Shown here: positions 2,937-62,788 of the stretch, piece after piece
Layout of the letters: each line of letters begins with the position of its first letter
How positions within the stretch are numbered: the first letter of the stretch is position 1
Source of the DNA: Octopus sinensis
Lineage: Eukaryota
NCBI RefSeq assembly: GCF_006345805.1
Contig: NC_043003.1
Span: 13,640,001 to 13,704,000, forward strand
DNA length: 64,000 nt
Reading direction: 5' to 3'
Translations under genes and position numbers: made by a program
Notes under the pieces: generated by a model
The model's database searches: none
The model's input: the letters and a program-made list of their open reading frames with translations, nothing else
What the model was told of the DNA's origin: nothing

Positions 2937-3062
2937 GTTAATCCAAACAAGAAAGCACAAAAAAAAACACAACAACGCGAGGACGTGGAACAAATATAGT
3001 ATTATTGGACGCTCAGGAAAGAAGGAGGGTTTAACGTTTCGAGCGGAGCTCTTCGTCGGAAA
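2937..3062 (-). mobile_element. Penelope-like short repeat (family H3), truncated, with a hammerhead-like motif
   Basis: Near-identical to 56882-57075; minus strand reads TTT-CCGACGA-A-GAGC-TCC-GCTC-GAAAC-GTT-AAAC. Confidence 0.6.
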
Positions 3063-6758: not shown

Positions 6759-8293
6759 AGTCCAATTTTATTGCTCCCACTGTACTTGGAGGGTACTTAT
6801 TTCATTGACCCCAGAAAGATGGCTCTACAGGAATTTGAACTTACAAAGTAACTAAATACAACACACAGCACTTTACTAATTCTGCCACACCACCTGTGTA
6901 ATGACAATGACGATAAAAACAATGATGATGATGATGATGATGAAAATAAAATAGTCAAATCTACAGCTGTGCTGTGTGCTTACAGTTTTAAAAGCTTGTT
7001 AGTGAGACATAGCCAGGTGCCAGAGGTTTGCTACAGTAAACAGACTATAGTTTTCTTTGTTTCTATAAACAATGTTTTTCAACTCCAGTTTATAAAGTCA
7101 TAGACAAATATCAAGATGATGGATAGGCAAAAATCGTTAGTGAAGCACTGGACAGCAAAATGCCTGGCAGTATTTAGTTATGATCCTTCACGTTCTTGAG
7201 TTCAAATCTTGCTGGGGTTTGACTTTTATACTTCGTAACCAACGAACACTTCCTGCCAAATCTGTGGCCTGTTGTGCCTCTGTTAGAAATGATTATTGCT
7301 GGCAAATGCCACAAACATTTACCAAAACAAAATCAAGACAATCTTGTTAGCTTAATGGATAAATATCATTAACTGTGAAATTATAATTAAAAAGGAACTG
7401 ATGACTGAAGGGTGGCTTAAAAATAATTAAATAATGATTTAAAGTCATTTAATAGAGTGAGATAGTAAATTAAATTTTTTTATTATGTACACAAATTGAA
7501 GATGTGTGACTTTTGTGAGATTAGTTGCTGTTTAGCCTCAGACCAGCCCTGGTCAAGTAAATCTATGATCAAAGATACTGCAGCTAAAATGACTTTGTCA
7601 TTTTGGCAGGAAGGGCAGGTATTGTATACTCTAGACCAGTGCTATTCAAAGAGGTGGTCCACAGACCAGTATGGTCTGTGAGCCATCAGCTGCCAGTTTG
7701 TGGTGAGTTTCCAGAAAAGAAAGAAACATTATGAAATGCTTAAGTAATATTGCATTATTTGTTTACAAGGTAAAAAACAAAAAACTGTCAACTTTTATTA
7801 TATTTGTAGCGAGGCACAAGAAGCTAGCACCATTTTGAACGAGATCTCGCTGATATCAATACTAATTTCAAATTCTGGCACAAGGCCAGCAAATTCAAGG
7901 GAGGGGGTAAGTTGGTTACATCAACCCCAGTGTTCCAACGATACTTATCTTATCGACCCCAAAAGAATGAAAAGTAAAGTCAACCTCAGAGGAATTTGAA
8001 CTCAGAATGTTAAAGACGGATGAAACGCCAAGCATTTTGCCTGGCATGCTAACGATTCTGCCAGCCTACCACCTTAATGAAAAATATATATATATATATA
8101 TATATACTTTTCTACTCTAGGCACAATGCCCGAGGTTTTTGGGGTGGGAACCAGTCGATTAGATCAACCCCAGTATGCAACTGGTACTTAATTTTAATTT
8201 TACCGACCTCGAAAGGATGAAAGGCAAAGTCGTCCTTGGCAGGAACCAGCACCAATATTAACAAGACTCAAGCTCCATGTATAAAACTCTCAC

Positions 8294-8375
8294 CTTGTAT
8301 TTTTGTGTTGTGGGTAGGTAAGCACAAATGCAGCAAGCCTTAGATTACCAAGATATGAGGCAAATGTGCCACTTA
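8294..8375 (-). other. Possible 82-nt internal exon (unverified)
   Basis: Acceptor CTCTTCTCCTTTCAG| and donor AAG|GTGAGA; one open frame (SGTFASYLGNLRLAAFVLTYPQHKNT). No recognisable homology. Confidence 0.2.
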
Positions 8376-23553: not shown

Positions 23554-23956
23554 ATATTATATAATATTATTAGAGACAAAACCACTTTGTTGATAGGTTT
23601 ATTTTAGTTTATATATTGTTTATATATTGATTATATATGGATTATATATAGATTATATATTCATATTTTTTCATTAATACTTTAATTATTTTAAAATTAT
23701 TATTTTTATATTTTAAAATATTGATATTTTAGATTGGAAGTCCACCTGAAGATTGTCGATCAAGACAAGAAACAATTGTAGTGGCGGTTTTTTTGACTTT
23801 TTATTAAAATTTTATGTATTGATTAAGTCTTTCCTTGTTTGTTTTGCAAAATAGTGGTTTTGTCTCTAATAATATTATATAATATTTTACTATAAAATTG
23901 GATTTAATCCTAAATCTGATTTTTTCCCTGTAAATTTGGATTTATTCCCTAATATT

Positions 23957-56486: not shown

Positions 56487-56881
56487 GAAATTGAAAGAAG
56501 CTGATTGTGGGAGTGTGTGTGTGTGTGTGTGTGTGTGTATGTTTATGTGTTTATGTTTGTATTTTGTCTTCACATCATGTGATAGTTGTAAATGAGTGCC
56601 ACTGTCATACAAGCAGTGTAATTTTCCAATATTCTATGAGAACATGTTTTATCATGGGGAAATATTCCCTTATTTGGAAAGAAGCGAGGGTTGGAAACAA
56701 GAAACACATCTGACCACCAAGCAAGCACAGAAAAGTTGATGCTAAAATGATGATCATACCCACTCACACACACGCAAAGGTACAAGTATGGACATGTGCA
56801 TGACATGTTCACATGTCAAGCATGTGATTTTGGGGTTCAGTCCCACACTGTTGTATCTTGAAGCAGGTGGCTTTTATTAAA

Positions 56882-57075
56882 GTTAATCCAAACAAGAAAA
56901 CACAAAAAAACACAACAACGCGAGAACGTGGAACAAATATAGTATTACTGGATGCTCAGGAAAGAAGGAGGGTTTAACGTTTCGAGCGGAGCTCTTCGTC
57001 GGAAACATAGAAGGAAAGATCCAGAGAAGGGAAGACAGAGGAAAAAAAATCGCTAACAGTACACACAAGGTCACA
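56882..57075 (-). mobile_element. Family H3 repeat, full length, hammerhead-like motif at 56972-57006
   Basis: Minus strand GTTT-CCGACGA-A-GAGC-TCC-GCTC-GAAAC-GTT-AAAC. Confidence 0.65.
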
Positions 57076-57313
57076 TATTAAACCCTAACCTTAAGAGAGC
57101 TACGCTAAATTACTGGTGTCCGTACCCTGTGAAAAACATCTGTACCAGGCCACATAAAAAGCACCCAGCACACTCTGTAAAGTGGTTGGCATTAGGTAGG
57201 GCATCCAGTCAGAGAAACCGAGACAAATCAAACTGGAACCTGGTGCGGCTCTTGTCAAACTGACCAACCCATGCCATCATGGAAAACAAGCATTAAATAA
57301 TGATGATGATATA

Positions 57314-57527
57314 CAGTAATCCCTTGCCATATCATGGTTCACCTACCACGGTTTATTTAAGCTTACGTTGATTCCTCCGTGGTGTTGTTTTGCAGTTATA
57401 ATAAAATAAAAATATACAAATTATAAAAGGAATTAAAAAAAAATATACAGTACAGCACAGTTTCAACTTTGTGGATTTTCACCTATCACAGGGGTTTTTG
57501 GAAAGTAACATAGTTCAGGGATTACTG
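57314..57527. mobile_element. Tigger/pogo-like MITE
   Basis: TA-CAGTAATCCCT ... AGGGATTACTG-TA. Confidence 0.8.
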
Positions 57528-58736
57528 TATATATATATCAAATGTATGTGGTTAAGAAGCTTGTTTCGTAACCATGCAGTTTTGGGGTTCAGTCACAATG
57601 GGCAGCACTGTGGGTGATTGCCACTAATTCCTGGTGAATTTGGTAAATGTCATTGTGTTTGTTCCCCCAACTGATGGACAACTGGTGTTGGCTTGTTTAC
57701 CTAACTTAGCGGTTCAGCAAAAGATACTGATAGTATATGAGCCAGACTTTAAAAAAAACAGAGTTTTTAATTTCATTTGATATATATATATATATATATA
57801 TATGTAAATAAAACATCATCATCATCGTTTAACATCCGTTTTCCATGCTAGCATGGGTAACCATTGAAGAAATTTAGTTGCACAAATCAACCCCAGCGCT
57901 TTTTTTTTATTAAGCCTAGTCTCTTTTGCCAAACTGCTAAGTTACAGGAACAAACACAGACGTACACACACACACACACACACAACAGGCCTCTTAAAGT
58001 TTCCATGTACCAAGTCCACTCACAAGGCTTTGGTCAGCCCAACGATATAGAAGACACTAGCCCAGGTAGCCATGCAGGATGGGACTGAACCCGGAACCAT
58101 GCGGATGAGAAGCAAACTTCTTGCCACACGCAGCCACGCCTATAGCAAGCTGGTTTAGTTTTCTACATAACAGCACCCCCCCACCTAATTATAGCATATA
58201 TATAGGTAAACCATCTACGAGCACAGCAACAGCAACAGTCGGATCAGTAAGCTGCAGAAGTAAGGTATGCTAACGGTGATATGTGCAAGAGAAGACATAT
58301 GCAACACTTCAAGACAACTCTTCACAGAAAAAGAACGAGAGACAGAGAGAAAAGAAGAGGAAGACCAACATTTAAATATATCACAAGGAAGTAAGATACA
58401 ACAACAGGAGCAAATTTCTGTATATGAAGTTAAATTTTAAAAATATCAAATAACTTTCTTCTTAACTGACTACTCCGCCCCACACCCACACCCCCTCCTC
58501 CTCCCAAGTTCATTTATGTTAAGAATTCGCTGCTTCTAAAAATAATATAAACATTTTTAACTAGTTAAGAGTTTGTTTTGGAGCGTATCACTAAAGCAAT
58601 GCAGTTAGGGAAAGGAAAAAACTCAAGGTTATTAACAACAACGAAAACAACACATAGAGTGATGATAAAAGTTGATTTTCTTGGCCTAATTTACAAATAT
58701 ATACAATATATTATATATACATTATATTATATATAC

Positions 58737-58945
58737 ATCATCATCATCATCGTTTAACGTCCATTTTCCATGCTAGTGTGGGTTGGATGGTTCGACCGGG
58801 GTCTGGGAAGCCAGGAAGCTGCAGCGGGCTCCAGTTTGATCTGGCAGTGTTTCTACAGCTGGAAACCTTTCCTAACACCAACCACTCCATGAGTGTAGTT
58901 GGTGCTTTTTACGTGCCACCGACACATGTGTTTATTATATATATA

Positions 58946-59006
<61 letters not shown>

Positions 59007-59328
59007 ATATATGTGTGTATATATATATCTCTGTAGAGATATATGGAAAGTGGACATTAAACAATGATATGTGTGTGTGCACACACACATATATAAACAG
59101 ATTTGGATTGCCTATGTTCAGTTCACTGCAGGACACACACACACACACACATCATCATCGTTTAACATCCGCTTTCCATGCTAGCATGGGTTGGACGGTT
59201 CAACTGGGAGTCTGGGAATCCAGAAGGCTGCACCAGGCCCAGTCTGATCTGGCAGTGTTTCTACAGCTGGATGCCCTTCCTAACACCAACCACTCCATGA
59301 GTATAGTGGGTGCTTTTTACGTGCCACC

Positions 59329-59361
<33 letters not shown>

Positions 59362-59502
59362 TTAACGTCCGCTTTCCATGCTAGCATGGGTTGGACGGTT
59401 CAACTGGGGTCTGGGGAGCCCGAAAGCTGCACCAGTCCAGTCAGATCTGGCAGTGTTTCTACAGCTGGATGCCCTTCCTAACGCCAACCACTCCGAGAGT
59501 GT
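58737..59502 (-). mobile_element. Three co-oriented family D 3' fragments
   Basis: (CAT)n-TTTAAC.TCC..TTTCCATGCTAG begins at ~58737, 59150 and 59330. Confidence 0.85.
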
Positions 59503-59509
59503 TTATATA

Positions 59510-59555
<46 letters not shown>

Positions 59556-60413
59556 TCAGGGATCTAAGTCTAAGAAGTGATGGTAGGTATAGAGAACAAA
59601 AAGTGGGCAGTACAATATGATAAGTTAGCTAACAAACATATATGTGTTAAATAGATCCTCGCATGGATTGTGAATATATGAATCACAGAGAGCATCAATC
59701 CTGTTGCCAATTAGCTTTAAACCCTGGTATCCAAGGAACTGTAACTAGGACAAAGTGTTTTTTCTACATGGAAACAAAATGAAGCACCTGCAGTACATTT
59801 GAACAGACAGCATGCCCTCTCCATCAACCACAGTCTGATGTACAGGCTGTGAATTTGAGCTTGAGACCCTACTTGTTTGATGAGCCTACCACACTTAAGT
59901 CGATGACATCGACCCCCCCCCCCAGTATTCAACTGTTACTTATCTCATTGACCCAAGAGGAATAAAGACAAAACTGACCTCAGTGGAATTTGGAATGTAG
60001 TGATGGATAAAATCTCGCCAAGCCCTCCACATGGCATGCTAACAATTACGCCAGCTTGCCACCAGATGTATGTGTGTGTGTGTGTGTAATGGGGGCTTTT
60101 CGGTTAGGTTGTTACATTCATGACAATAAGATTGTGGTTTTGATTTCTGGATTGGTTGACATGTGTTCTTGACCAAAACACTTCATTTCCCATTGCAAGA
60201 TGGACCGGTGTACCACCCAGCTGAGGACTGTGCATGTCACAGAAACTGGGACCAGCCCTATGAGTCTAAATGACTCAGGGAAGGAGCTTTATACTTTTGT
60301 GTGTGTATCTATAGGTATGTGTGCATGTGTAAGTGCATATGTGTATATGCGTATGTGTGTATTCATGTATGTATATGTGTATTTATTTATATGCATGTAT
60401 ATATCTATATACA

Positions 60414-60787
60414 TATATGTGTGTGTATTTGTATGTATGAATATACAAGTGTGTTTGTATATGTATATCTATGTGTATTTGTATGTGTATGTGTGTATAT
60501 ATATAGGCAGACAGACAGATAGATAGATCATCATCATCATCGAATATACAAGTGTGTTTGTATATGTATATCTATGTGTATTTGTATGTGTATGTGTGTA
60601 TATATATAGACAGACAGACAGATAGTAGATCATCATCATCATCGTTTAACGTTGATGATGATGATGATGATGATCTATCTATCTGTCTGTCTGTCTATAT
60701 ATATACACACATACACATACAAATACACATAGATATACATATACAAACACACTTGTATATTCATACATACAAATACACACACATATA
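60414..60787. repeat. Fold-back palindrome with a duplicated left arm
   Basis: 60653-60787 is the reverse complement of ~60414-60541; 60542-60643 is a direct copy of the left arm; centre CGTTTAACG. Confidence 0.85.
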
Positions 60788-60974
60788 TTTATTTATATTA
60801 AGGGCATTACTATACATAAATGCCTCATGCTAGGAGGGACTCTTAAAAGTCAAAACTACCGTAATAAACACATTGTATTATGGTAGTTTTGACTTTTATT
60901 ATGGTAGACTTTAAGAATCTCTCCTAGCGTGAGGCATTTATGTATAGTAATGCCCTTAATATAAATAAATATAT
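60783..60974. repeat. Second palindrome (~65-bp arms plus an inner hairpin)
   Basis: ATATTAAGGGCATTACTATACATAAATGCCTCATGCTAGGAG pairs with CTCCTAGCGTGAGGCATTTATGTATAGTAATGCCCTTAATAT; inner stem 60844-60866/60876-60898. Confidence 0.9.
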
Positions 60975-61791
60975 TTAAAGGGAAAAATAAATAAATTTTT
61001 CCTTTATCAAGTTTTTCACACTAACTACTTGATAATTTTTTTTATAATGATTTTATCCTATTTTTAAATTGTATATAGATAGATAGATAGATAGTTGTTC
61101 AAGCATGTAGATAATAATAATAAAAAAATCAAGCAAACACACACAAAAAAAAACAACACTCCTAATGAATGAATCATAGCTAAAAACTTTTACTAAGAGG
61201 TGTAACAGAACAGTTAAGTAGGGCACACAATTGCTGCGTACAACACATTACAATGCTATGTAATGATGAAACTAAATCTATTTACACTGCAACACTGAAG
61301 GTCTCTGTGTTTCATTTCCGTCCCCACCACAATGAAATGCGATCTTCGAAAAGTTGTTTTTAAGATTTACACAGACAATTTTTTTTTTTTTTTTGAGGTA
61401 CCAGATGTAAAAATTCTAAACTGAAATTTTGAAATGAAATGTAACAGAGAAGGAATAAATTTTAAAATTACTGAATATTGATTTTTACTGGGCAATCTCA
61501 TGGCTTGGAGTTCAGTTCCACATTGTGGCATTCTTGGCCAAACTGTTTTCTATTCTAGTAGCAGGCCAGCTGAAGCTTTGTGCGTGAATTTAGTAGATGG
61601 AAACTGTAAAGAAGCCATATATATATTTGTGTGTGTGTGTGTGTGTTGGCCACATTAATCAGTAAATATCTCTAAGTTTAGCATTTGATAAATTGACTAA
61701 AACCCTTCAAAGTGGTGCTCTAGCATGGCCACAGTTTAATGACTGAAATTAGTAAAGAATACAAAAGCAAAAAAAAAACTAAGTTAGTATA

Positions 61792-61836
<45 letters not shown>

Positions 61837-62332
61837 CAATCAATGCTGCTGTTGTGGTAACTTAGCATTTGAGTATGGAAATGTCAAACGGACGACTTTT
61901 AAAAAGAGATAAATTCAAGAGGTTGACCTTGGTGGGATCTGAACTCAGAGCAGAGTCAGAACAAATGTTACAAGGAAATCTAACCAACACTCTAATAAGT
62001 CTGCCAATTCAGTACCTTTTCTGCTATAATATAAAGTAAGATAGATACAATTTAACTACCCTGTTCAACCCAGTTAAATTGCATGTGAATGCTGAATTTT
62101 TGTTCATACTCACAATAGCATACACACACACGTGTGTGTGTATATATATATATATCATCATCATTGTTGTTTAAAATCTATCTTCCATGCATGTATGGGT
62201 AGGATGGTTGAATGGAGCCGGCCAGGTAGCAAAACTACCCTTGGCTACTCTATCCATGTGAGCAGGGTTTGTGGGTTGGATTTTGATTACTCAAGGAAGG
62301 TTTGTATATATATATATATATATATATACAAA

Positions 62333-62542
62333 ATGTGACCTCGTGCATACCGTTGGCGATTTTTTTTCCTCTGTCTTCCCTTCTCGGGATCTTTCCTTCT
62401 CCTATGTTTCCGACGAAGAGCTCCACGTGAAACGTTAAACCCTCCTTCTTCCCTTCTTTCCTGAGCATCCAATAATACTATATTTGTTCCACGTCCTCGC
62501 GTTGTTGTGTTTTTTTGTGTTTTCTTGTTTCAATTAACTTTA
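62333..62542 (+). mobile_element. Family H3 repeat, stem II mutated
   Basis: GTTT-CCGACGA-A-GAGC-TCC-ACGT-GAAAC-GTT-AAAC at 62406-62440; flanked by (TA)n. Confidence 0.65.
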
Positions 62543-62788
62543 TATACATATATATAGTATATATAACTTACTTTGCAACATCACTAGCACAGGTGGCACG
62601 AAAAAGCATCTGGTAAACACTGTAAGGTGATTGGTATTAGGAAGGGCATCAAGCCATATAAAACAAGCAAAAGATGACACAGGAGTTCAGCACAGCCTTG
62701 TGGCTTCCTGGATACTGTCAAACCATCTAATCCACATGCCAGCATGGAATATAGACGTTAAATGATGACGATGTATAAATATACATAA

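What the first reader, a model, noticed from the sequence alone, without database searches (positions are those of the whole stretch)
56882..62542. Family H3: second hammerhead-like repeat family with a CCGACGA (C4) core
Seen: copies at 56972-57006 (-), 62406-62440 (+) and 3029-3062 (-) all read (G)TTT-CCGACGA-A-GAGC-TCC-[GCTC]-GAAAC-GTT-AAAC, with stem I GTTT/AAAC and the palindrome AACGTT at stem III. It shares stem II GAGC/GCTC with H2 but has different stem I arms that still pair, which is compensatory change between families. Inference: a radiation of Penelope-like pLTR ribozymes with different core substitutions.
Basis: partly seen in the sequence, partly recalled or inferred. Interest (0 to 1): 0.75.

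Follow-up and report, generated by a model that had tools for sequence, protein, structure and literature searches.

The report
Penelope retrotransposon tails, variant hammerhead core
These repeats are the broken-off tail ends of a Penelope-like jumping gene, very abundant in this (probably octopus) genome, and they carry a miniature hammerhead ribozyme motif with one changed core letter (C for U at position 4) that likely cuts weakly at best; the kind of element is already known.

Summary
Three copies of one repeat lie at 62329-62539 (+), 56881-57080 (-) and 2937-3062 (-), each with the CCGACGA-A-GAGC-UCC-GCUC-GAAAC-GUU-AAAC motif; copy A has lost the 3' strand of stem II.

The repeat is the 3' end of 5'-truncated copies of a Penelope-like element (PLE). 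[quoted passage not shown] One locus shows the repeat-ORF-repeat (pLTR) layout. Insertions sit in (TA)n.

The motif has the published anatomy of the PLE minimal hammerhead: 4-bp helix I, an extra A after A9, G10.1-C11.1, an ACGU palindrome and no loop 3. The exception is C at position 4.

Whole-genome exact counts are CCGACGA 6,876, CUGACGA 3,060, CUGAUGA 497 and CCGAUGA 299. C4 is fixed in at least four diverged subfamilies whose flanks differ strongly. It looks derived from canonical relatives and is the majority letter in contigs of four coded organisms.

Helix I pair 2.4-1.4 covaries across subfamilies (GC, GU, AU, CG). The sister family H2 has U6 in 14,826 copies against A6 in 169.

Cleavage is untested. 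This is a new variant of a known kind, of moderate interest.

The parts
62329..62539 (+). H3 copy A: 5'-truncated 3' end of a Penelope-like element (subfamily a), ending ...TCAATTAACT next to TA-rich sequence
   Evidence: 94-96% identical to the 29 other best-scoring genomic copies; the 5' end lies in the ragged 5'-truncation zone and the 3' end is shared by all 30 aligned copies
62406..62440 (+). Hammerhead-like motif of copy A: GTTT / CCGACGA / A / GAGC-TCC-ACGT (stem II 3' strand decayed) / GAAA / CGT-T / AAAC. The predicted cleavage site would lie between 62436 and 62437
   Evidence: sequence; 3 mismatches to the family pattern
56881..57080 (-). H3 copy B: 5'-truncated 3' end of the same element family, inverted relative to copy A
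   Evidence: (inverted repeats I2, I7, I9)
56972..57009 (-). Intact motif of copy B: TATGTTT-CCGACGA-A-GAGC-TCC-GCTC-GAAA-C-G-T-T|AAAC; C4 lies at 57001
2937..3062 (-). H3 copy C: a shorter 5'-truncated copy that begins inside helix I
3027..3062 (-). Motif of copy C: core, stem II and GAAAC-GTT-AAACCC are intact; the 5' strand of helix I is cut to TTT
62305..62328 (.). (TA)n microsatellite at the 5' junction of copy A, the family's usual insertion target
   Evidence: TA repeats follow the 3' end in 30 of 30 aligned copies and also precede many 5' ends

Best explanation
The H3 repeats are the 3' ends of 5'-truncated copies of a Penelope-like retrotransposon (reverse transcriptase plus C-terminal GIY-YIG endonuclease) that lands in (TA)n microsatellites, and their CCGACGA...GAAAC-GU motif is a Penelope-type minimal type I hammerhead in which U4 has become C; this variant is predicted to cleave only weakly, and would do so as a dimer.

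Shown: the anatomy of the copies, the link to the PLE ORF, the repeat-ORF-repeat layout, the copy counts, the fixation of C4 in several diverged subfamilies, and covariation in helix I.

Inferred: transcripts that carry two copies (tandem or pLTR arrangements) would pair their ACGU palindromes into a shared helix III and cut after GUU (subfamilies a, b) or GUC (c, d). C4 likely lowers the rate without abolishing the motif's use to the element, because every other core letter stayed fixed while the flanks diverged. The three window copies are dead, solitary insertions with no expected activity, and copy A has also lost stem II.
For: PLE identity.
- Copies share a fixed 3' end (GGATTAACT + (TA)n) and have ragged 5' ends (30 of 30 copies; longer copies).
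- L086 and L087 continue colinearly upstream into ...CNTCPF...CNLCGILYVGQTGRRLADRFAEH and into RT motifs PKIHK, DIKSLYT and YIDD.
- Pfam gives RVT_1 at E 0.006 and GIY-YIG at E 0.005 on these decayed frames. The L158 RT aligns to an intact 781-aa RT+GIY-YIG ORF at 31% identity, E 3e-22.
- L158 has a 272-nt C4-bearing repeat at 1778-2043 and 8052-8317 (95.6% identity) around the ORF. The upstream tail abuts the element's 5' end.

Hammerhead anatomy.
- The motif has the features that PMC4209133 (parts 1-2 read) gives for metazoan PLE min-HHRs: a nucleotide between A9 and 10.1, G10.1-C11.1, a palindromic 15.2-16.2, no loop 3 and a helix I of 4-5 bp.

Descent from canonical hammerheads.
- Sister subfamilies in the same sequence context carry CUGACGA (3,060 copies) and CUGAUGA (497), against CCGACGA 6,876 and CCGAUGA 299. 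The total is 10,732 and the reversed-pattern controls gave 0.
- The excess of CUGACGA (3,060) over CCGAUGA (299) cannot be CpG decay of H3 alone.

Constraint.
- C4 occurs in at least four subfamilies (a-d) with strongly diverged flanks.
- In subfamily c, sampled by flank only, 23 of 30 copies are exact, 1 reads CCGACAA, 6 have other changes or small indels in or beside the core, and none reads U4.
- Helix I pair 2.4-1.4 reads GC 6, CG 5, AU 3, GU 2, other 1 in 17 hand-picked rows; no shuffle of 500 reached the covariation score.

Other organisms.
- C is the majority at position 4 (T at 15-27% of summed depth) in contigs of four runs from four coded organisms.

Precedent.
- A U4C viroid hammerhead loses much in-vitro activity yet supports infectivity (PMC3088659, passage).
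Against: - No cleavage and no RNA evidence. No listed run is on record as RNA, and only contigs could be laid.
- U4 belongs to the conserved core, and mutations at most core positions cause drastic loss of activity (PMC3088659).
- Helix I has only 4 bp.
- The minimum-free-energy fold of the 44-nt RNA pairs GACG with CGUU or CGUC, which would sequester the core and the cleavage site.
- Genomic copies end about 103 nt past the predicted cut (coordinates), so the templates that were copied had not been cut there.
- Two related lineages are prolific with other changes at positions counted as essential: U6 in H2 (14,826 copies against 169 with A6) and G17 in subfamily alpha. This fits a role that does not need cleavage.
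- For a lizard PLE, catalytic hammerhead mutants did not affect insertion in vitro (PMC11167929, passages).
- Rfam finds no hammerhead here. It also misses the canonical-looking minimal hammerhead at 23746, so this negative says little.
- The direction U4 to C4 rests on a midpoint-rooted tree and on terminal branch lengths.
Confidence: 0.72

Rival explanations
1. The motif descends from a Penelope hammerhead but no longer cleaves. It would be kept because the RNA, or its dimer through the ACGU palindrome, is bound by the element's RT/EN or serves template choice, so changes at U4, A6 or N17 cost nothing.
For: Three lineages each carry a different change at a position counted as essential and are the most numerous: C4 6,876, U6 14,826, and alpha with G17. 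The canonical beta and U4U7 versions are fewer (3,060 and 497). Catalytic hammerhead mutants did not change PLE insertion in vitro, and that hammerhead cleaved only when protein was added (PMC11167929). Naiad PLEs thrive without canonical hammerheads (PMC8557442). Copies extend past the predicted cut site.
Against: All other unpaired core letters (G5, A6, G8, A9, G12-A14) stayed fixed after C4 arose, while the flanks changed at 20-90% of columns. Position 7, the one free core position of hammerheads, is the one that varies: C or U in the H3 group, and all four letters in H2. Subfamilies c and d moved from GUU to GUC, the triplet I recall as the best-cleaved. A U4C hammerhead works in vivo in a viroid. 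None of this excludes a protein-binding role for the same letters.
Confidence: 0.3
2. The motif is a neutral relic: a hammerhead that died with the U4C change and is merely carried along in a successful element.
For: Individual copies decay freely at CpG sites of the core and of stem II without compensation. The window's copy A has lost stem II.
Against: Decay of dead copies says nothing about the master elements. Between subfamilies the motif is the best-kept stretch. The exact 33-nt TATGTTT...GAAACGT is shared by subfamilies a, c and d despite diverged flanks. Helix I covaries.
Confidence: 0.08
3. H3 is an independent short non-autonomous repeat (SINE-like or retrozyme-like), not part of a Penelope-like element, and resembles a hammerhead by chance.
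For: Most copies are only about 210-300 nt long, and none of the three window copies lies next to an ORF. Rfam reports no hammerhead.
Against: 5' ends are ragged and run on, step by step, into a PLE 3' UTR and ORF in independent loci. A T8 run near the 5' end would stop RNA polymerase III (sequence; the rule is recalled). Sister subfamilies are fully canonical minimal hammerheads. The Rfam control on the canonical-looking motif at 23746 also failed.
Confidence: 0.03

Closest known systems
Minimal type I hammerheads (min-HHR) in the flanking repeats of metazoan Penelope-like elements (Cervera & De la Pena 2014, PMC4209133; parts 1-2 read)
   Same: Type I layout with an open helix I of 4 bp. An unpaired nucleotide between A9 and G10.1. 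G10.1-C11.1. GAAA box. Palindromic 15.2-16.2 (ACGU) with no loop 3, which implies action as a dimer. Position in the repeated 3'/pLTR part of a PLE. Thousands of mostly solitary copies from truncated elements. Families with compensatory changes.
   Different: Core position 4 is C, not U, in the whole H3 lineage (6,876 exact copies). Stem II has only 4 bp with a 3-nt loop, whereas the paper describes 6-8 bp in Schistosoma mansoni and Drosophila virilis. The paper's figures mark 'exceptional core changes', but I could not see the figures, so whether C4 is among them is unknown.
EN+ Penelope-like elements with a CX2-5CxxC linker and (TA)n preference (Neptune/Nematis type; Naiads share the target bias; Craig et al. 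2021, PMC8557442, passages read)
   Same: [quoted passage not shown] A C-x4-C-x2-C motif ahead of GIY-YIG. Partial tandem giving pLTRs. 5' truncation. An inverted 5' piece in one locus (L017). Insertion into (TA)n, with target-site duplications hidden by the microsatellite.
   Different: The clade was not determined by phylogeny here. The 3' UTR is long (~1.4 kb) with T-rich and CA-rich tracts. The hammerhead core is non-canonical, whereas the paper says canonical hammerheads are universal in PLEs other than Naiad and Chlamys.
Natural U4C hammerhead variant of a viroid (cited in Perreault et al. 2011, PMC3088659, discussion passage read)
   Same: The same core substitution occurs in a natural hammerhead that still serves its carrier.
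   Different: That is a type III viroid hammerhead with tertiary contacts, seen as a variant within a population. Here C4 is fixed in a retrotransposon lineage whose minimal hammerhead has no recognisable loop-loop contacts.
Metazoan non-LTR retrozymes (Cervera & de la Pena 2020, PMC7229834; Li et al. 2026 preprint 10.64898/2026.07.22.740005; search listing and abstract only)
   Same: Type I hammerheads on non-coding repeats tied to PLE machinery. One array of three 566-nt units with the canonical core exists in this genome (L159).
   Different: The H3 copies of the window are solitary 5'-truncated tails of an autonomous element, not tandem small units. No circular RNA evidence is available.

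Membership tests
Metazoan PLE minimal hammerhead (min-HHR) | Catalytic boxes CUGANGA and GAAA | tested here: not met
   H3 reads CCGACGA (C at position 4); GAAA is present. Sister subfamilies read CUGACGA and CUGAUGA. H3 is therefore a core variant related by descent, not a match to the descriptor.
Metazoan PLE minimal hammerhead (min-HHR) | One nucleotide between A9 and 10.1, and a G10.1-C11.1 pair | tested here: met
   A, then GAGC...GCTC, in all 17 aligned rows. The feature list comes from PMC4209133.
Metazoan PLE minimal hammerhead (min-HHR) | Palindromic 15.2-16.2 with no or a tiny loop 3 (dimer helix III), followed by an NUH cleavage triplet | tested here: met
   GAAA-C-G-U with no loop, so ACGU is a palindrome. 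The triplet is GUU (a, b, beta) or GUC (c, d). Subfamily alpha has GUG, which breaks the NUH rule as I recall it.
Metazoan PLE minimal hammerhead (min-HHR) | Short helix I (4-5 bp) supported by compensatory changes | tested here: met
   4 bp. Pair 2.4-1.4 reads GC 6, CG 5, AU 3, GU 2, other 1 of 17; covariation score 0.132 against 0.037 for shuffles, reached by 0 of 500. The rows were hand-picked representatives. Only one pair covaries, and stem II is invariant.
Metazoan PLE minimal hammerhead (min-HHR) | Lies in the repeat that flanks a PLE ORF | tested here: met
   L158: motif at 1917 and 8191 inside 272-nt direct repeats around an RT ORF. L086 and L087: EN/RT, then UTR, then H3.
Metazoan PLE minimal hammerhead (min-HHR) | Site-specific self-cleavage | not testable with these tools
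   Only contigs of runs of unrecorded kind were available.
Penelope-like element, EN+ with C-terminal GIY-YIG | RT and GIY-YIG endonuclease in one ORF, EN at the C-terminal end | tested here: met
   L087: RT frame, then CNTCPF...CGILYVGQTGRRLADRFAEH, then a stop, then the UTR. Pfam RVT_1 16.7 bits and GIY-YIG 17.6 bits, both below the curated cut-offs on these frameshifted copies. BLASTP E 3e-22 to an intact 781-aa RT+GIY-YIG ORF of the same genome.
Penelope-like element, EN+ with C-terminal GIY-YIG | Partial tandem (pLTR) organisation, 5' truncation, inverted 5' pieces | tested here: met
   L158: upstream tail joined head-to-tail to the element's 5' end. Ragged 5' ends. A roughly 70-nt inverted piece in L017.
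Penelope-like element, EN+ with C-terminal GIY-YIG | Clade assignment (Neptune, Nematis, Penelope/Poseidon, Hydra) by RT/EN phylogeny | not tested
   Only the C-x4-C-x2-C linker and the (TA)n target were seen. No reference PLE proteins were available for a tree.
Non-LTR retrozyme | Tandem array of short non-coding units, each with a hammerhead, giving circular RNA | tested here: not met
   The window copies are solitary and lie 5.2 kb apart in inverted orientation. L159 has three 566-nt units with the canonical core, which I did not follow up.

The most novel reading that the evidence does not exclude
In this genome the most successful Penelope lineages carry hammerhead cores that textbook rules call dead: C4 in about 6,900 copies, U6 in about 14,800, and G17 in the alpha subfamily. 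Yet every other core letter is held fixed and only the free position 7 drifts. Either these are working alternative cores of a protein-assisted, dimeric hammerhead, or the conserved 'catalytic' letters serve a second job, such as recognition by the element's own RT/EN, that has been mistaken for catalysis.
Probability: 0.3. Interest if true: 0.65.

Novelty: new variant of a known kind. Interest (0 to 1): 0.45.

Why it matters
What hammerheads do for Penelope-like elements is still open. The 2014 paper found only weak cleavage in vitro (PMC4209133). A 2024 study found that catalytic mutants insert normally in vitro (PMC11167929). Naiad PLEs do without canonical hammerheads (PMC8557442).

This genome offers a natural experiment inside one family. 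Closely related subfamilies carry U4, C4, U6 or G17, each with thousands of dated copies, so the cost of each core change to proliferation can be read from copy numbers. The same pairs (C4 against U4 in one context) are ready-made constructs for cleavage assays.

The three window copies are ordinary dead transposon tails.

Tried and rejected
- Rfam (gathering threshold on the whole window; E up to 10 on copy A, and on four loci with intact motifs): no hammerhead hit. The control on the canonical-looking minimal hammerhead at 23746 also gave none, so Rfam is blind to this minimal form and the negative was set aside.
- An element bounded by the inverted copies at 56.9 and 62.5 kb: rejected. The interval holds no long ORF apart from frames over simple and SINE-like repeats, and the two copies are separate insertions (88% alike).
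- SINE or MITE reading: rejected once longer copies led into a PLE ORF.
- Partner hunt through GIY-YIG hits (30 loci and 5 long stretches): the 781-, 780-, 883-, 775- and 762-aa PLE ORFs fetched belong to other families. H2 or H3 pieces near them are separate insertions in TA repeats. Walking upstream from long H3 copies found the real link.
- RNA evidence: no RNA holder is listed. Contigs of four runs were laid; they cannot show RNA ends or strand.
- Stem II covariation: the first 100 places matching a pattern with free stem II showed only single, uncompensated changes, so stem II is supported by conservation only.
- RNA cofold of two 44-nt copies gave an extended duplex, which is uninformative.
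- Protein Atlas: nearest named clusters are RT-domain proteins with PF26215/RVT_1, commonest in rotifers. This is a lead only.
- Earlier-findings look-ups by place and by sequence returned nothing.
- Literature: searches for hammerhead + octopus, Penelope/octopus/ribozyme and hammerhead + U4C listed no paper on octopus PLE hammerheads or on a C4 PLE hammerhead. The supplementary figures of PMC4209133, which list core variants, were not seen.

Full report
**1. The observation**

The three copies are real. A BLAST of 62320-62560 against the window returns 57079-56878 (88% identity, 213 nt) and 3062-2927 (87.5%, 144 nt). The repeat finder reports the first pair as inverted repeats I2, I7 and I9.

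Copy B (56972-57009, -) and copy C (3027-3062, -) read TTT-CCGACGA-A-GAGC-TCC-GCTC-GAAAC-GTT-AAACCC. Copy A (62406-62440, +) has ACGT where the others have GCTC, so its stem II is broken. The 22-nt family pattern occurs 3 times against 0.01 expected. These are copies of one repeat, so that is one event.

**2. What the repeat is**

The window lies in a 2.7-Gb genome (G000, contig C7). A search with copy A gave at least 1,902 candidates, and the 40 that were scored are 93-100% identical.

In an alignment of the 30 loci fetched from that search, with their flanks, every copy ends ...GGATTAACT followed by TA repeats. Many are also preceded by TA repeats, and the 5' ends are ragged. Searching with the 5' extension of one longer copy gave 484 more candidates, with copies truncated at many different points.

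Two long copies were then walked upstream (L086, L087). They are colinear with each other over the last ~1.9 kb. They run through a T-rich and a CA-rich 3' UTR into coding sequence...CSRSRCNTCPF...CNLCGILYVGQTGRRLADRFAEH (a CxxC linker and GIY-YIG). In L087 the RT follows further upstream (PKIHK, DIKSLYT, YIDD, KPTD). Both copies are 5'-truncated next to TA-rich repeats and are frameshifted.

Pfam gives RVT_1 (E 0.006) and GIY-YIG (E 0.005), both below the curated cut-offs on these decayed frames. The RT of a related locus aligns to an intact 781-aa RT+GIY-YIG ORF of the same genome at 31% identity, E 3e-22.

Locus L158 shows the full layout. After (TA)n comes a 5'-truncated tail with the C4 motif, ending GGATTAAAATTATA. 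It is joined directly to the 5' end of an element with an RT ORF and a CA-rich UTR, which ends in the same tail again (1778-2043 against 8052-8317, 95.6% identity). That is the partial-tandem pLTR structure described for Penelope-like elements (PMC8557442, passages).

H3 is therefore the last ~210-300 nt of a PLE, and the window's copies are 5'-truncated tails. No long ORF lies between the two inverted copies, which are separate insertions.

**3. The motif**

It reads 5'-UAUGUUU / C3 C4 G5 A6 C7 G8 A9 / A / GAGC-UCC-GCUC / G12 A13 A14 / A15.1 C15.2 G16.2 U16.1 / U17 | AAAC-3'.

Cervera and De la Pena (PMC4209133, parts 1-2 read) list features of the metazoan PLE min-HHR that their search descriptor did not impose:
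- G10.1-C11.1;
- a palindromic 15.2-16.2, with loop 3 absent or tiny, so that two copies form helix III together;
- a helix I of 4-5 bp.

H3 has all of these. Its only departure is C at position 4.

Rfam reports no hammerhead. It also misses the canonical-looking minimal hammerhead at 23746-23790, so that negative carries no weight.

**4. Relatives with other cores**

Exact whole-genome counts in the context ...GAAGAGC-N3-4-GCTCGAAACGT (both strands; reversed-pattern controls 0):

| Core | Copies | Call |
|---|---|---|
| CYGAYGA (total) | 10,732 | 51 |
| CCGACGA | 6,876 | 50 |
| CTGACGA | 3,060 | 52 |
| CTGATGA | 497 | 48 |
| CCGATGA | 299 | by subtraction |

If CTGACGA arose only by CpG decay of H3, it should be about as common as CCGATGA. 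It is ten times commoner, so separate U4 subfamilies exist.

Samples taken in order along contig C1 confirm this:
- Most of the 30 CTGACGA copies form a subfamily (beta) with its own diagnostic differences from H3.
- The 20 CTGATGA copies include an older-looking subfamily (alpha, GUG at the cleavage triplet), beta-like copies, one H2-like copy and one copy of a further family.
- The 20 CCGACGA copies fall into at least four subfamilies: a (the window's type), b, c and d. Their flanks differ strongly.

Between-subfamily identity in 15-column windows is 0.83, 1.0 and 0.80 across the motif, against 0.08-0.78 elsewhere. Twenty-six of those motif letters were fixed by the search pattern, which inflates the middle value.

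An unbiased check removes that objection for subfamily c. Of 30 copies picked by their upstream flank alone, 23 read TTT-CCGACGA-AGAGC exactly, 1 reads CCGACAA, 6 have other changes or small indels in or beside the core, and none has U4.

**5. Direction of change**

A maximum-likelihood tree of 60 of the 70 sampled copies was built with core positions 4 and 7 masked. Ten rows were dropped by hand: L089, L090, L093, L095, L097, L122, L128, L135, L136 and L155. Most are truncated or belong to other families.

The tree is a ladder: (c, d), b, a, beta, alpha. Terminal branches are longest in alpha (0.054-0.16) and shortest in a, b and c (mostly 0.005-0.065).

I infer the order alpha (CUGAUGA), beta (CUGACGA), then a, b, d and c (CCGACGA). 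On this reading C4 is derived, arose about once, and was kept through further radiation. The root is a midpoint root, so this order is an inference.

In contigs of four runs from four coded organisms, position 4 is C, with T at 27, 15, 22 and 24% of summed depth. The mixture of C4 and U4 copies is therefore not peculiar to this assembly.

**6. Structure support**

On 17 hand-picked rows from the subfamilies and H2, helix I pair 2.4-1.4 reads GC 6, CG 5, AU 3, GU 2, other 1. The covariation score is 0.132 against 0.037 for shuffles (0 of 500 as high) and 0.009-0.067 for slid partners. Only that pair covaries.

Pairs 2.1-2.3 are U-A nearly throughout, and columns beyond 2.4 do not pair. Stem II is invariant. 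A pattern that left stem II free showed only uncompensated single changes among the first 100 places.

**7. H2**

The H2 copies (window 24242, 26339, 30147) read CUGU-N-GA-A-GAGC-GYAG-GCUC-GAAAC-GUA-AAAGAC. Genome-wide, U6 occurs 14,826 times and A6 169 times in that context. All four letters occur at position 7 among the first 100 places listed. H2 is thus a second, larger family with one non-consensus core letter, and it varies at the one core position that hammerheads leave free.

**8. How it most likely works**

*Shown.* The element is a PLE with a (TA)n target. The motif sits about 103 nt from the 3' end. Tandem arrangements that would put two motifs on one transcript exist (L158, L159, L160).

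*Inferred.* Two motifs would pair through ACGU and cut after U17 or C17. C4 weakens this.

*For continued use of the motif:*
- Every other core letter stayed fixed after C4 arose.
- Subfamilies c and d changed GUU to GUC.
- A U4C viroid hammerhead works in vivo despite poor activity in vitro (PMC3088659).

*Against a need for cleavage:*
- Genomic copies extend beyond the cut site.
- Lineages with U6 and G17 also thrive.
- Catalytic hammerhead mutants of a lizard PLE inserted normally in vitro, and that hammerhead cleaved only with protein present (PMC11167929).
- The MFE fold pairs G5-G8 with C15.2-N17. Most hammerheads with this helix III could do the same (my inference from the core rules).

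My odds, given PLE-hammerhead descent (about 0.9):
- weak but real cleavage, about 0.45;
- a conserved role without cleavage, about 0.3;
- a neutral relic, under 0.1.

**9. Novelty**

PLE minimal hammerheads, their dimer logic, their solitary truncated copies and occasional core variants are in print (PMC4209133), and so is a natural U4C hammerhead (PMC3088659). My searches listed no paper on octopus PLE hammerheads or on a C4 PLE hammerhead. I could not see the supplementary figures of PMC4209133.

Earlier notes of this scan describe other octopus PLE hammerhead families, one in this genome with an A3-U8 core. I did not test them.

New here is that C4 is fixed in a prolific lineage, beside canonical sisters and a U6 family. 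I rate it a new variant of a known kind, of moderate interest. The window copies themselves are ordinary dead insertions.

Noticed in passing
window 23736-23790 (+): A canonical-looking Penelope-type minimal hammerhead of another family: GUCCAC / CUGAAGA / UUGUC-GAUCAA-GACAA / GAAAC-AAUU-GUA | GUGG. Rfam does not report it even at E up to 10.
   Followed up: partly
Genome-wide, U6 occurs 14,826 times against A6 169 times in this context, and position 7 takes all four letters.
   Followed up: partly
L088-L107 (subfamily alpha, e.g. L100, L101, L103): An older-looking subfamily has the canonical CUGAUGA core but GUG at the cleavage triplet. G at position 17 breaks the NUH rule as I recall it. 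Its helix I pair 2.4-1.4 is A-U.
   Followed up: partly
L159 1664-3401 (G000 contig C4): Three head-to-tail units of about 566 nt (98-99% alike), each with the canonical CUGAUGA version of the motif. This is either a retrozyme-like array or a local tandem duplication.
   Followed up: no
L017 (G000 contig C17), about 130 nt upstream of the H3 tail: A roughly 70-nt piece of the element's UTR lies inverted directly upstream of the same stretch in direct orientation. This is the fold-back layout described for PLE insertions.
   Followed up: no
L081 2721-5063 (G000 contig C6) and many places: An intact 781-aa RT+GIY-YIG Penelope-like ORF with many equally scoring copies (at least 5,029 GIY-YIG candidates genome-wide). 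Its 3' end also abuts (TA)n. My simple descriptor found no hammerhead-like motif in its ~1-kb 3' UTR, which has TGATGACGTC repeats.
   Followed up: partly
window 57181-59500 and 62129-62300: Several copies of a different short repeat (...CATCATCATCGTTTAACGTCCGCTTTCCATGCTAGCATGGGTTGGACGG...), SINE-like and often next to the TA-targeted elements.
   Followed up: no
window 60403-60798: A 139-nt inverted repeat, 97% complementary, with 118 nt between the arms, inside TG/TA-rich simple sequence.
   Followed up: no
window 60221-60245 (+): CCCAG / CUGAGGA / C / UGUG-CAUGU-CACA / GAAA / CUGGG has hammerhead boxes but no NUH site. It is probably chance.
   Followed up: no
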